A DNA stretch of 64,000 nt from Escherichia phage vB_EcoM_ECO78. The stretch lies in sequence record PP526941.1; one strand, given 5' to 3'. The position numbers and the translations under genes were made by a program. The notes under the pieces were generated by a model. It searched no databases, was not told where the DNA came from, and was given only the letters and a program-made list of their open reading frames with translations. Below are positions 24,108 to 26,370 of this stretch, one piece after another (position 1 is the stretch's first letter; every line of letters starts with the position of its first letter).

Positions 24108-24116
24108 ATCACCTTC

Positions 24117-24323
24117 TTAAAGCGTATTCACATAAGCTATTAATTCGTTTTCTTTCTTATCAAACCGATCAGCAAATTCTTCTTGCTGTTCGGGAGATAT
24201 CGGGCCATATTCATCATAAAAGATGTTTGCTTCTGCATGCTCATCTAGAAGTTCATGGATAAGCTCAAACAATTTATCTTTTTGTTCTTTACTCAGACTC
24301 ATAACCATGTAACCTTTAAGCAA
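24117..24323 (-). CDS. Hypothetical acidic protein (68 aa)
   Basis: ORF. Confidence 0.45.
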   Translation of the reverse strand: MLKGYMVMSLSKEQKDKLFELIHELLDEHAEANIFYDEYGPISPEQQEEFADRFDKKENELIAYVNTL

Positions 24324-24511
24324 TATTCTTCTACATGCTGTTTACGACCTTTCTTATCAATAAAGGTATATTCAACGAATGTTCCAATGTAGTCTTTATC
24401 TACATCATGTAGACTATTAATTGGGCATTTAGTACGGCAAATGCGTTCCCATTGACGAATAATTTCTGCTTTGTTTTTAGGATCAAACGGATGCGGGTAA
24501 TGTATTTTCAT
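24299..24511 (-). CDS. Hypothetical protein (70 aa)
   Basis: ORF. Confidence 0.5.
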   Translation of the reverse strand: MKIHYPHPFDPKNKAEIIRQWERICRTKCPINSLHDVDKDYIGTFVEYTFIDKKGRKQHVEEYCLKVTWL

Positions 24512-24962
24512 AATCCACCACTATTAAATCAATATCAGGAGTAAACATGTCGATTAATTTAGAAACCTTATCCCAATCACCGCCAGCAATACCACAACCT
24601 ATGCGTGGAATGTAAATTACTGGTTTAAACAAAAGGGTTTCTGCCTGTAGATTTAATTCTATCATGCAGTTTACTAAAGCACCATAATCAAGATTAGGAC
24701 CTGGTTCGTATTGCGTATACAAGTTATAACATATGCCAAAACCATTAGGTTTATGTTTAAAAACAATAGACATATCACCGAGTTTTTCACGCGAACCATA
24801 TTCAGTTGTGGTCTTATCTATTTCTAAAATTTTGGGATAGGCTCTTGCTAATTGACCAGCTACACCACTACCCATTGTATGAAAACAATTGCACCCGTGC
24901 GCAATAATATTACCTTCAAGAAAGAGGGCGACAATATCGCCCTTGATATATTTTACAATCAT
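24483..24962 (-). CDS. Macro-domain protein (ADP-ribose binding/hydrolase-like), 159 aa
   Basis: Motifs GDIV ... NIIAHGCNCFHTMGSGVAGQLARAYP and IPRIGCGIAGGDW resemble macrodomain signature; ATGA coupling. Confidence 0.7.
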   Translation of the reverse strand: MIVKYIKGDIVALFLEGNIIAHGCNCFHTMGSGVAGQLARAYPKILEIDKTTTEYGSREKLGDMSIVFKHKPNGFGICYNLYTQYEPGPNLDYGALVNCMIELNLQAETLLFKPVIYIPRIGCGIAGGDWDKVSKLIDMFTPDIDLIVVDYENTLPASV

Positions 24963-25306
24963 CTAGTACTCAATCCTCGATTATAAGAATCTACCAAACG
25001 GTCAACCATTGAATGACAAGCGGCTTTATCTTTCTCCTCCGCAACTGAACATTCTAACGTATTCCACTTTTTAGCATATCGTTTTAATAATGTATCGTTT
25101 TTGTATCTGCTTGATTTATCTCTTTCTCCATCTTTATATGCATATATTAATTTCTGTGCAAATTCAGCTTGGCATGCTTTATTTTTCCCACAATAATCTG
25201 CCGCAGTGCGGTTTGCATATTCTCTAATTTCAGTATATGATGTATCTGCTGACGCAGAAGCAGAAAATGAAATTAATCCTATACATAAAACCAAAATTTT
25301 AGTCAT
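24959..25306 (-). CDS. Secreted small protein (115 aa); vs position
   Basis: Signal peptide MTKILVLCIGLISFSASASA; Cys-containing mature part. Confidence 0.55.
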   Translation of the reverse strand: MTKILVLCIGLISFSASASADTSYTEIREYANRTAADYCGKNKACQAEFAQKLIYAYKDGERDKSSRYKNDTLLKRYAKKWNTLECSVAEEKDKAACHSMVDRLVDSYNRGLSTR

Positions 25307-25844
25307 TTACTATTTCCAAAAGTTTATTATTTTTAAGGTAATTAGCCTTTTCTAGGACTTCAGAAGCATATTTAGAACCTGCTTTAACATTCCATCCCGA
25401 ATTATAAGAGGATATTGCTTTTCTTATATCGCCCTTATGTATATTTAACCAATAAGAAAGTTCAATGTACGCCCAGGAAGCTGAATTGGATCGTTTATTC
25501 AACATTCTTTTTATTTCAGCATCGGTCATATTATAACCAAGTTCCTTAACTCTTGCTCGCATAGTAGGCAAATAATTTTGGAACATTCCGTAGGCGTGGT
25601 GCTTTGGTTTAGATTTTAAATTAACTCCGCCAGAGCTTTCTTGCCATAAAATAGCAGCCATTATATGACCCAATCCGCTCTTGTGGATATTTTTATGTGT
25701 TTTATATTTTCCATCCTTAGAAAATTGTTCCCCGAATTGATACGCGTAACGCATGTTATCGAGTTGGACATTACTGAAAGTATGCTCGGAGCTATGCGCC
25801 ATCATTGAAATGGCCAATAGACCAGCGAGTAGTGCTTTTCTCAT
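25299..25844 (-). CDS. Secreted lytic-transglycosylase-like protein (SLT domain)
   Basis: Signal peptide; SLT-like motifs AILWQESSG and YGMFQ. Confidence 0.65.
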   Translation of the reverse strand: MRKALLAGLLAISMMAHSSEHTFSNVQLDNMRYAYQFGEQFSKDGKYKTHKNIHKSGLGHIMAAILWQESSGGVNLKSKPKHHAYGMFQNYLPTMRARVKELGYNMTDAEIKRMLNKRSNSASWAYIELSYWLNIHKGDIRKAISSYNSGWNVKAGSKYASEVLEKANYLKNNKLLEIVND

Positions 25845-26340: not shown

Positions 26341-26370
26341 ATTATACCACAGTCAAGAGGAAAAGTAAAC
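26341..26370 (-). promoter_or_regulatory. Early promoter upstream of regB
   Basis: Minus strand GTTTAC - 18 nt - TATAAT; SD GAGGAG before regB ATG. Confidence 0.65.

What the first reader, a model, noticed from the sequence alone, without database searches (positions are those of the whole stretch)
24483..24962. Macro-domain protein in the tk-vs interval
The 159-aa ORF carries macrodomain-like motifs (GDIV..., NIIAHGCNCFHTMGSGVAGQLARAYP, IGCGIAGGDW). Macrodomains bind or hydrolyse ADP-ribose. A phage-encoded one could reverse host ADP-ribosylation defences (DarT-type DNA ADP-ribosylation, NAD-derived signals) or regulate the phage's own ADP-ribosyltransferases. It is translationally coupled to the secreted vs-position gene.
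Basis: partly seen in the sequence, partly recalled or inferred. Interest (0 to 1): 0.6.

Follow-up and report, generated by a model that had tools for sequence, protein, structure and literature searches.

The report
Divergent allele of phage T4 tk.4/adfM
This gene of a T4-like phage encodes a small ADP-ribose-removing (macrodomain) enzyme; it is a divergent copy of T4 gene tk.4 (adfM), which was recently shown to protect T4 from the bacterial DarTG2 defence, so it is real but already explained.

Summary
Window 24483..24962 (-) is a 159-aa ORF with the quoted motifs, and its ATG overlaps the vs stop codon (ATGA). It is a macrodomain: Pfam PF01661 scores 34.4 bits against a cut-off of 22, the AlphaFold2 model has pLDDT 93.5, and the best PDB fold matches are TARG1, BT1257, Poa1p, DarG and SCO6735. 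The window is a Tequatrovirus and the ORF sits where T4 has tk.4, between tk.3 and vs. It is only 58% identical to T4 Tk.4, while rI, tk, vs and vs.1 are 98-100% identical, so it looks like a swapped allele. A 2025 preprint showed that T4 tk.4 (renamed adfM) is the single T4 gene needed to resist DarTG2. The A1pp/macro domain of tk.4 has been annotated since 2006. What I add: this family is not DarG-like in its active site. An invariant Gln84 replaces the catalytic Lys of DarG, TARG1 and PhiKZ AdfM. Asn25, Gln84 and Gly124 match Asn27, Gln85 and Gly128 of SCO6735, a Gln-type enzyme shown to cleave DarT-made ADP-ribosyl-thymidine. The most likely function is early-expressed removal of ADP-ribose from phage DNA. 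No biochemistry exists for this allele or for T4 Tk.4. Verdict: already known, low interest.

The parts
24483..24962 (-). CDS of the 159-aa single-domain macrodomain protein, a divergent allele of T4 tk.4 / adfM
   Evidence: ORF list. Pfam Macro 34.4 bits against a cut-off of 22. PHROG 335 E=2e-71. 58% identity to T4 Tk.4 in the same gene position. AF2 model pLDDT 93.5.
24959..24962 (-). ATGA overlap between the vs stop codon and the tk.4 start codon
   Evidence: Sequence. The same arrangement is annotated in T4 and in phage PaulHMueller.
24936..24941 (-). Gly8-Asp9 of the N-terminal KGD motif; by analogy with other macrodomains this is the adenine-contacting Asp
   Evidence: G8 is found in 118 of 121 homologues; position 9 is D in 88 and N in 31. 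It aligns with KGD of TARG1, SCO6735 and BT1257. The adenine contact comes from general knowledge of macrodomains and was not tested.
24885..24899 (-). His22-Gly-Cys-Asn25-Cys motif. Asn25 aligns with DarG N22, PhiKZ AdfM N23 and SCO6735 N27. His22 aligns with Poa1p H23 and SCO6735 H24.
   Evidence: Invariant or nearly invariant in 121 and in 138 homologues. Alignments. Mutational data for the equivalent residues are in PMC9411070 and PMC13309987.
24858..24875 (-). Loop 1, Met30-Gly-Ser-Gly33-Val-Ala35 (the GxG loop of macrodomains)
   Evidence: G33 and A35 are invariant.
24711..24725 (-). Asn80-Leu-Tyr-Thr-Gln84 strand end. Gln84 occupies the position of the catalytic Lys of TARG1 (K84), DarG (K80) and PhiKZ AdfM (K78), and of the essential Gln85 of SCO6735.
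   Evidence: Q84 is invariant in 121/121 and 138/138 homologues. The mapping rests on MAFFT, a profile search and hmmalign.
24573..24608 (-). Loop 2 / phosphate-binding loop, Pro119-Arg-Ile-Gly122-Cys-Gly124-Ile-Ala-Gly-Gly-Asp-Trp130. Gly124 aligns with SCO6735 Gly128.
   Evidence: P119, G122, G124 and W130 are invariant. Alignment.
24483..24511 (-). 29-nt overlap between the 3' end of tk.4 and the start of the downstream tk.3-like ORF (24299..24511)
   Evidence: The same overlap is annotated in phage PaulHMueller. In T4 the overlap is 4 nt.
24512..24870 (-). Segment of the gene that diverges from T4 (about 40-70% nucleotide identity), flanked by 95-100% identical DNA
   Evidence: Sliding-window identity between window and T4. 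Protein identity per 20-residue block falls from 17/20 at the N-terminus to 4/15 at the C-terminus.
26341..26369 (-). Sigma-70-like promoter (TTTACT, 17-nt spacer, TATAAT, with TG) upstream of regB; candidate start of the early transcript regB-vs.1-vs-tk.4
   Evidence: Best consensus match in the scan, 10 of 12 positions. This is a consensus match only. The total number of promoter-like sites found was not above the number in shuffled sequence.

Best explanation
The ORF is this phage's allele of T4 tk.4, also called adfM (anti-DarT factor, macrodomain). It is a stand-alone 159-aa macrodomain enzyme, transcribed with the early genes regB-vs.1-vs. It most likely protects replicating phage DNA from the host DarT2 toxin of DarTG2 systems. 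DarT2 attaches ADP-ribose to thymidine in single-stranded DNA. The phage enzyme would bind the ADP-ribose through its two glycine-rich loops and hydrolyse the ribose-thymine N-glycosidic bond, restoring unmodified DNA. Its active site is of the glutamine type described for Streptomyces SCO6735. Gln84, held in place by Asn25, would position the distal ribose so that water-mediated cleavage can occur. It does not use the lysine found in DarG, TARG1 and PhiKZ AdfM. Shown here: domain identity, predicted fold, gene position, and conserved residues. Taken from the literature: the anti-DarTG2 phenotype of the T4 orthologue, and the chemistry of SCO6735. Inferred: that this 58%-identical allele has the same activity and the same target.
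For: The ORF passes the Pfam Macro cut-off. The AF2 model (pLDDT 93.5, pTM 0.88) matches, in order, TARG1 4j5r (E=8.9e-10), BT1257, Poa1p, T. aquaticus DarG 5m31 (2.9e-8), M. tuberculosis DarG 5m3i and SCO6735 5e3b. DarG is the best family in NCBIfam and the only one in PADLOC, and the match covers only its macrodomain part. The ORF occupies the tk.4 position and is 58% identical to T4 Tk.4. T4 tk.4 was the only significant hit in a transposon screen on a DarTG2 host, and its knockout sensitised T4. T4 lacking both adfA and adfN stays DarTG2-resistant, which had predicted a further factor. Asn25, Gln84 and Gly124 are invariant in 259 homologues and align with SCO6735 Asn27, Gln85 and Gly128. 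In SCO6735 the Q85A mutant lost all activity, N27S lost almost all, and G128E lost a substantial part; that enzyme cleaves DarT-made dT-ADPr and rescues E. coli from DarT (PMC9411070). A DarT-DarG operon is present in an E. coli replicon, so the threat exists in the host range. A promoter-like site lies upstream of regB and no convincing terminator lies between it and this gene.
Against: There is no biochemical assay for this allele or for T4 Tk.4; the T4 evidence is genetic and comes from a preprint. The allele is only 58% identical to T4's, and identity falls to about 30% in the C-terminal third, so specificity could differ. The family lacks the extended Lys-bearing mobile loop after the Gln, which the SCO6735 authors link to high activity on DNA. 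SCO6735 Val25, which those authors propose positions the catalytic water through its backbone, is Gly23 here. The His-x-Cys-Asn-Cys motif is shared with the small-molecule hydrolase Poa1p. In unrelated phages the homologue sits next to NAD-salvage genes.
Confidence: 0.72

Rival explanations
1. It is a hydrolase of small ADP-ribose derivatives in the manner of yeast Poa1p, acting on ADP-ribose-1''-phosphate or O-acetyl-ADP-ribose. This is the 'phosphatase' of current annotations. [quoted passage not shown]
For: PHROG 335 and many GenBank records name it 'phosphatase' or 'Poa1p-like'. His22, Asn25 and Thr29 align with Poa1p His23, Asn26 and Ser30. Poa1p is among the top sequence and fold matches. 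In Acinetobacter, Vibrio and Pakpunavirus phages the homologue lies beside nicotinamide phosphoribosyltransferase, PRPP synthetase or NARP1 genes. A comparative-genomics survey argued that most phage Macro domains target low-molecular-weight ADP-ribose derivatives (PMC9503650).
Against: At the position of the invariant Gln84, Poa1p has Ser, and it lacks Asn80. The Asn-Gln pair is the SCO6735-type DNA de-ADP-ribosylase signature. The only phenotype known for the T4 orthologue is loss of DarTG2 resistance. No NAD-salvage genes flank it in this window. The 'phosphatase' name comes from domain transfer (A1pp), not from an assay.
Confidence: 0.12
2. It neutralises DarT2 mainly without catalysis, either by binding the toxin (interaction-inhibition) or by shielding modified DNA.
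For: Catalytically dead SCO6735 Q85A, DarG K80A and TARG1 K84A all inhibited DarT in vitro, and SCO6735 did so most strongly. The sharp divergence of the allele from T4 over most of the protein would fit co-evolution with a protein partner.
Against: The protein lacks the C-terminal DarT-binding domain of DarG; the DarG profile match stops at position 141 of 338. Every residue needed for catalysis in SCO6735 is invariant across hundreds of diverse homologues, which points to selection for enzymatic activity.
Confidence: 0.08
3. It reverses or tunes modifications written by the phage's own ADP-ribosyltransferases Alt, ModA and ModB. These are protein arginine ADP-ribosylation and RNAylation.
For: T4-like phages carry three ADP-ribosyltransferases and this is a macrodomain (general knowledge; mentions the Alt/Mod system). 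Nothing obtained here supports the idea specifically.
Against: Characterised enzymes of this macrodomain class cleave acidic-residue esters and thymidine-linked ADP-ribose, whereas arginine-linked ADP-ribose is removed by ARH1-type enzymes. The T4 screen gave a defence-specific phenotype, and anti-defence genes such as this one are non-essential on a standard host. Homologues are widespread in phages that are not known to carry Alt/Mod homologues; I did not check this for the phages.
Confidence: 0.04

Closest known systems
T4 Tk.4 / AdfM (NP_049723; bioRxiv 10.1101/2025.11.20.689424)
   Same: Same position between tk.3 and vs. Same single-domain architecture, 159 aa against 155 aa. Identical first 14 residues. 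All invariant family residues are shared. Same PHROG family.
   Different: Only 58% identical overall, while the flanking genes are 98-100% identical. Loop 2 reads GCGIAGGDW here and GAGIGKGNW in T4. This allele is 4 residues longer and overlaps tk.3 by 29 nt. It has never been tested experimentally.
Streptomyces coelicolor SCO6735 (PDB 5E3B) and Bacteroides BT1257 (PDB 2FG1/2AFC): Gln-type ALC1-like macrodomains
   Same: Gln replaces the catalytic Lys. Asn25, Gln84 and Gly124 correspond to SCO6735 Asn27, Gln85 and Gly128. The His-x-Cys-Asn motif is shared. BT1257 is the best PDB sequence match to the family profile (E=7e-20).
   Different: About 28% identity to BT1257. It lacks the roughly 5-6-residue extension of the mobile loop after the Gln, with the loop lysines cited for DNA processivity (K89 aligned here). 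It has Gly where SCO6735 has Val25. It is phage-encoded rather than chromosomal.
DarG antitoxin macrodomain (PDB 5M31, 5M3I; NCBIfam NF048014)
   Same: Same fold (TM 0.73) and the same presumed substrate, DarT2-made ADP-ribosyl-thymidine. The active-site Asn is conserved. DarG is the best family in NCBIfam and the only match in PADLOC.
   Different: It scores 28 bits against a cut-off of 250. There is no C-terminal DarT-binding domain and no adjacent darT gene. The catalytic Lys80 is replaced by Gln.
PhiKZ gp104 AdfM (Cell Rep 2026, PMC13309987)
   Same: A stand-alone phage macrodomain that counters DarTG2, and it carries the same name.
   Different: PhiKZ AdfM is DarG-like, with Asn23 and Lys78, and its DNA de-ADP-ribosylation has been shown in vitro. 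BLASTP against the window protein finds only a 31-residue match at E=0.009. The two proteins belong to different macrodomain lineages that share a name.
Human TARG1 (PDB 4J5R)
   Same: It is the best Foldseek match (E=8.9e-10, TM 0.72-0.81), and it also reverses DarT thymidine ADP-ribosylation.
   Different: About 20-25% identity. The TARG1 catalytic pair Lys84/Asp125 corresponds to Gln84/Ala126 here.
Yeast Poa1p (PDB 6LFQ)
   Same: HSCNC in Poa1p against HGCNC here. His23, Asn26 and Ser30 correspond to His22, Asn25 and Thr29. This is the source of the 'phosphatase' and 'Poa1p-like' annotations.
   Different: Poa1p has Ser at the Gln84 position, lacks Asn80, and carries a long insertion before loop 2.

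Membership tests
Macro domain (Pfam PF01661) | Profile score above the curated gathering threshold | tested here: met
   34.4 bits against a cut-off of 22, E=2.4e-8, covering residues 22-136 and profile positions 2-117 of 118.
Macro domain (Pfam PF01661) | Mixed alpha/beta macro fold | tested here: met
   AF2 model with pLDDT 93.5. There are 164 PDB matches with E<=0.001, and every one of the 50 best listed is a macrodomain or a protein designed on a macrodomain scaffold.
Macro domain (Pfam PF01661) | Two glycine-rich ADP-ribose/phosphate-binding loops | tested here: met
   MGSGVA (30-35) and PRIGCGIAGG (119-128); G33, G122 and G124 are invariant.
Macro domain (Pfam PF01661) | ADP-ribose binding | not testable with these tools
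   This needs ITC, a pull-down or a co-crystal structure.
T4 Tk.4 / AdfM orthologous group | Position between tk.3 and vs in a Tequatrovirus genome | tested here: met
   The gene order and the 94-100% identical flanking proteins match T4.
T4 Tk.4 / AdfM orthologous group | Full-length sequence homology to T4 Tk.4 | tested here: met
   58% identity over 155 residues without gaps, E=9e-70. PHROG 335 E=2e-71.
T4 Tk.4 / AdfM orthologous group | Confers resistance to DarTG2 | not testable with these tools
   Shown only for the T4 allele, by transposon screen and knockout.
Gln-type ALC1-like macrodomain hydrolases (SCO6735 type) | Gln at the position of the TARG1/DarG catalytic Lys, supported by the conserved Asn | tested here: met
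   Gln84 and Asn25 are invariant in 259 homologues and align with SCO6735 Gln85 and Asn27.
Gln-type ALC1-like macrodomain hydrolases (SCO6735 type) | Extended mobile loop after the Gln carrying lysines (K89, K94) | tested here: not met
   The window protein has the short loop YEPGPN, where SCO6735 and BT1257 have about 5-6 more residues.
Gln-type ALC1-like macrodomain hydrolases (SCO6735 type) | Hydrolysis of thymidine-linked ADP-ribose on DNA | not testable with these tools
   This needs an in vitro assay with DarT2-modified oligonucleotide.
DarG antitoxin (NCBIfam NF048014) | Whole-protein score above the curated cut-off | tested here: not met
   28 bits against 250; only profile positions 2-141 of 338 are matched.
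DarG antitoxin (NCBIfam NF048014) | C-terminal DarT-interacting domain | tested here: not met
   The protein is 159 aa and a single domain.
DarG antitoxin (NCBIfam NF048014) | Catalytic lysine (Taq DarG K80) | tested here: not met
   Gln84 aligns with the Lys of the FPTK motif in E. coli and Klebsiella DarG and in PhiKZ AdfM.
DarG antitoxin (NCBIfam NF048014) | Operon with a darT toxin gene | tested here: not met
   The neighbouring genes are vs and tk.3. Compare the darT-darG pairs in L004 and L005.
Poa1p-type ADP-ribose-1''-phosphate phosphatase | Poa1p key residues His23, Asn26, Ser30 and Gly33 | tested here: inconclusive
   His22 and Asn25 are conserved; Ser30 is Thr29 here and Gly33 is Ser32. 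Poa1p has Ser where this family has the invariant Gln84.
Poa1p-type ADP-ribose-1''-phosphate phosphatase | Phosphatase activity on ADP-ribose-1''-phosphate | not testable with these tools
   The annotation is by domain transfer only.

The most novel reading that the evidence does not exclude
The T4-type AdfM proteins may form a third, mechanistically distinct clade of DNA de-ADP-ribosylases: Gln-type like SCO6735, but with a short loop and a Poa1p-like HGCNC motif. Phages would have recruited it independently of DarG. The sharp allele replacement seen here (58% identity inside 98-100% identical flanks, with a junction inside the gene) may reflect selection for different DarT variants or different ADP-ribose linkages. 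If so, the two Tequatrovirus alleles would differ in which defence systems they neutralise.
Probability: 0.2. Interest if true: 0.5.

Novelty: already known. Interest (0 to 1): 0.22.

Why it matters
This finding changes little. Phage anti-defence enzymes that erase DNA ADP-ribosylation are a current topic, but the gene family, its domain and its role in T4 are already described, and this allele is already in more than 300 GenBank phage genomes. Two smaller points remain useful. First, T4-type AdfM is not an 'orphan DarG'. It carries a glutamine-type active site like SCO6735 and BT1257, so mutants designed on the DarG lysine would miss the mark. The name AdfM now covers two unrelated macrodomain lineages. 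Second, tk.4 is a recombination hot spot with two deeply diverged alleles in otherwise near-identical genomes. That offers a natural experiment on the specificity of counter-defence.

Tried and rejected
1. DarG membership. I tested it with NCBIfam and PADLOC and rejected it: 28 bits against a cut-off of 250, no C-terminal domain, no catalytic Lys and no adjacent darT.

2. Is the missing catalytic Lys a sign of an inactive binder or a new mechanism? I first suspected so. I rejected novelty after reading PMC9411070, which shows that the Gln-type SCO6735 is fully active on dT-ADPr.

3. Poa1p-like phosphatase. I kept this only as a minor rival, because Poa1p has Ser at the invariant Gln position.

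4. Close relationship to PhiKZ AdfM. Rejected: BLASTP finds only 31 residues at E=0.009.

5. A strict Nudix-box regular expression across the window, run to look for a linked ADP-ribose pyrophosphatase (T4 nudE), found nothing. I did not pursue it.

6. Internal terminator. The terminator-like hairpin at 24925-24943 lies inside the coding region and is identical in T4. I do not treat it as a terminator.

7. Promoter scan. The number of promoter-like sites was not above the number in shuffled sequence. Only the regB-upstream site is mentioned, as a candidate.

8. Reference sequences. I recalled the TARG1 and Poa1p sequences from memory and used them only after they matched PDB chains at 100%.

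Full report
**The observation**

Window 24483..24962 on the minus strand is a 159-aa ORF. Its ATG overlaps the stop codon of the upstream 115-aa ORF as ATGA. Its last 29 nt overlap the start of the downstream 70-aa ORF.

The surrounding genes are rI.-1, rI, rI.1, tk, two small ORFs, this ORF, vs, vs.1 and regB, all on the minus strand. The DNA is 98.3% identical to Shigella and Escherichia Tequatrovirus genomes. The window therefore comes from a T4-like phage.

**What the protein is**

- The protein passes the Pfam Macro model: 34.4 bits against a cut-off of 22, covering almost the full profile.
- It belongs to PHROG 335, labelled 'phosphatase', at E=2e-71.
- Sequence searches of the PDB return only macrodomains of one class: BT1257, Poa1p, SCO6735, M. 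tuberculosis DarG and TARG1.
- An AlphaFold2 model built on 63 homologues is confident (pLDDT 93.5, pTM 0.88).
- Foldseek places the model with TARG1 (E=8.9e-10), BT1257, Poa1p, T. aquaticus and M. tuberculosis DarG macrodomains and SCO6735. Coronavirus Mac1 follows further down.
- Both glycine-rich loops are present and their key glycines are invariant.

Neither happened.

**Which gene it is**

In T4 (NC_000866) the gene between tk.3 and vs is tk.4, annotated 'phosphatase; contains A1pp phosphatase motif'. The window protein aligns with T4 Tk.4 over 155 residues without gaps at 58% identity. The neighbours are far closer: rI.-1 98.4%, rI 99.0%, rI.1 100%, tk 99.5%, tk.3 94.3%, vs 99.1% and vs.1 100%.

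Nucleotide identity is 100% through vs and over the first 76 nt of tk.4, and stays about 80-90% to roughly nt 100. It then falls to about 40-70% for the rest of the gene and returns to 95-100% in tk.3. This is an allele replacement with one junction inside the gene.

The window-type allele is common. 318 phage records carry it at 90% identity or more; the best is phage PaulHMueller/Bas45 at 99.4%. Several of these records already call it 'macro domain protein' or 'tk.4: macro domain-containing protein'. The A1pp/macro assignment of tk.4 orthologues was published in 2006 (PMC1524935).

**What is known about function**

A November 2025 preprint (10.1101/2025.11.20.689424) screened a saturated T4 transposon library on E. 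coli expressing DarTG2. It found one significant hit, tk.4. A clean knockout made T4 sensitive to DarTG2. The authors renamed the gene adfM and proposed, without biochemistry, that it removes ADP-ribose from DNA. This fits an earlier finding that T4 lacking adfA and adfN remains DarTG2-resistant (PMC11825919).

A separate 2026 paper used the same name for PhiKZ gp104. It showed in vitro removal of DarT2-made ADP-ribose from DNA and identified active-site residues Asn23 and Lys78, equivalent to DarG Asn22 and Lys80 (PMC13309987).

**The active site is not DarG-like**

This is the point I can add. Alignments by MAFFT, by profile search and by hmmalign to the family profile agree. The strand-end motif N80-L-Y-T-Q84 of the window protein aligns with FPTK of E. 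coli and Klebsiella DarG and PhiKZ AdfM, and with LITK84 of TARG1. The catalytic lysine is therefore replaced by glutamine.

Gln84 is invariant in 121 of 121 close homologues and in 138 of 138 further 50%-cluster representatives. So are Asn25, Gly122 and Gly124, and Asn80 in all but one. I first read this as a possible anomaly. It is not one.

SCO6735 of Streptomyces coelicolor has Gln85 at this position. It efficiently cleaves DarT-made ADP-ribosyl-thymidine and rescues E. coli from DarT. Q85A abolishes its activity, N27S nearly abolishes it, and G128E causes a substantial loss. Its authors propose that reversal of thymidine ADP-ribosylation unifies the whole ALC1-like macrodomain class (PMC9411070).

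Using the SCO6735 sequence recovered from the PDB, window Asn25, Gln84 and Gly124 map onto SCO6735 Asn27, Gln85 and Gly128. BT1257, the closest solved relative of the phage family (profile E=7e-20), also has the Gln.

Poa1p is the source of the 'phosphatase' label. It shares the His-x-Cys-Asn-Cys motif but has Ser at the Gln position (the Poa1p and TARG1 sequences were verified at 100% against the PDB).

Two differences from SCO6735 remain. The phage family lacks the extended lysine-bearing loop after the Gln. It also has Gly where SCO6735 has Val25.

**Membership**

- It is a macrodomain.
- It is the positional and sequence orthologue of T4 tk.4/adfM.
- It has the Gln-type catalytic signature of SCO6735 but not that enzyme's loop.
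- It is not a DarG. It scores 28 bits against a cut-off of 250 and matches only the macrodomain part of the profile. It has no DarT-binding domain, no catalytic Lys and no adjacent darT.
- It is not related in any close sense to PhiKZ AdfM.

**Most likely mechanism**

The gene lies in the early cluster downstream of a good sigma-70-like site in front of regB, with no convincing terminator in between (consensus match only). The protein is most likely made before and during replication. It would bind ADP-ribose attached by DarT2 to thymidines in single-stranded phage DNA and hydrolyse the N-glycosidic bond. Gln84, held by Asn25, would position the distal ribose.

- Shown here: the domain, the fold, the orthology and the conserved residues.
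- From the literature: the T4 phenotype and the SCO6735 chemistry.
- Inferred: that this particular allele has the same activity.

I put this explanation at about 0.7.

The rivals are:

- A Poa1p-like hydrolase of small ADP-ribose derivatives. This is supported by the shared His/Asn motif and by linkage to NAD-salvage genes in unrelated phages.
- Non-catalytic inhibition of DarT2. Catalytically dead SCO6735 does this in vitro.
- Reversal of the phage's own Alt/Mod modifications. Nothing supports this.

**Verdict**

Residual interest lies in three things: the absence of any biochemistry for T4-type AdfM, its glutamine-type site, and the sharp allele replacement at this locus. The family is very large, with 18791 50%-identity clusters at E<=0.001 and 1162 at E<=1e-30. 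That again marks it as a common phage accessory function rather than a rarity.

Noticed in passing
window 24959-25306 (-), vs: The Vs protein, annotated as valyl-tRNA synthetase modifier and 99% identical to T4 Vs, starts with what looks like a classical Sec signal peptide: MTKILVLCIGLISFSASASA|DT, with a hydrophobic core and an Ala-Ser-Ala site. That is odd for a protein said to modify a cytoplasmic enzyme. The HIDEN-SEQ preprint reports that vs is conditionally required in minimal medium and that its role is unknown.
   Followed up: partly
window 24512-24870 compared with T4 (L002): tk.4 is a divergence hot spot. Nucleotide identity to T4 is about 40-70% inside the gene and 95-100% on both sides, and the upstream junction lies inside the coding sequence at about codon 30-40. 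Tequatroviruses carry two deeply diverged alleles of the gene.
   Followed up: partly
window 24108-24323, between tk and tk.3: Only one small ORF lies here (68 aa, 54% identical to T4 Tk.2). T4 has tk.1 and tk.2 at this place, and close relatives have three or four small genes. The best DNA matches span about 373 bp more than the window.
   Followed up: partly
window 24925-24943 (-): A GC-rich hairpin, AGGGCGATATTGTCGCCCT (8 pairs), sits at codons 7-13 of tk.4 and is identical in T4. The scan flagged it as terminator-like, but it is inside the coding sequence. Its significance is unknown.
   Followed up: partly
window 25299-25844 (-), vs.1: The 181-aa Vs.1 protein is 100% identical to T4's. 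It also begins with a signal-peptide-like segment (MRKALLAGLLAISMMAHS), and the literature reports a weak match to the SLT transglycosylase domain.
   Followed up: no
phage records H59, H60 and H63; Pseudomonas phage Adele (PMC12846349): In Acinetobacter, Vibrio and Pakpunavirus phages the homologous macrodomain gene lies next to nicotinamide phosphoribosyltransferase, ribose-phosphate pyrophosphokinase or NAD-reconstitution genes. This hints at a second role in ADP-ribose/NAD metabolism for some members of the family.
   Followed up: no
L004 1145-2865 (E. coli STEC1012 replicon CP061270.1): A darT (DUF4433) - darG (macro) pair is inserted between the hsdS and hsdR genes of a type I restriction-modification locus. 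The literature also describes this arrangement.
   Followed up: no
literature: The name AdfM is now used for two macrodomain lineages with different active sites: T4 Tk.4 (Gln-type, BT1257/SCO6735-like) and PhiKZ gp104 (Lys-type, DarG-like). BLASTP between the window protein and PhiKZ gp104 aligns only 31 residues at E=0.009.
   Followed up: yes
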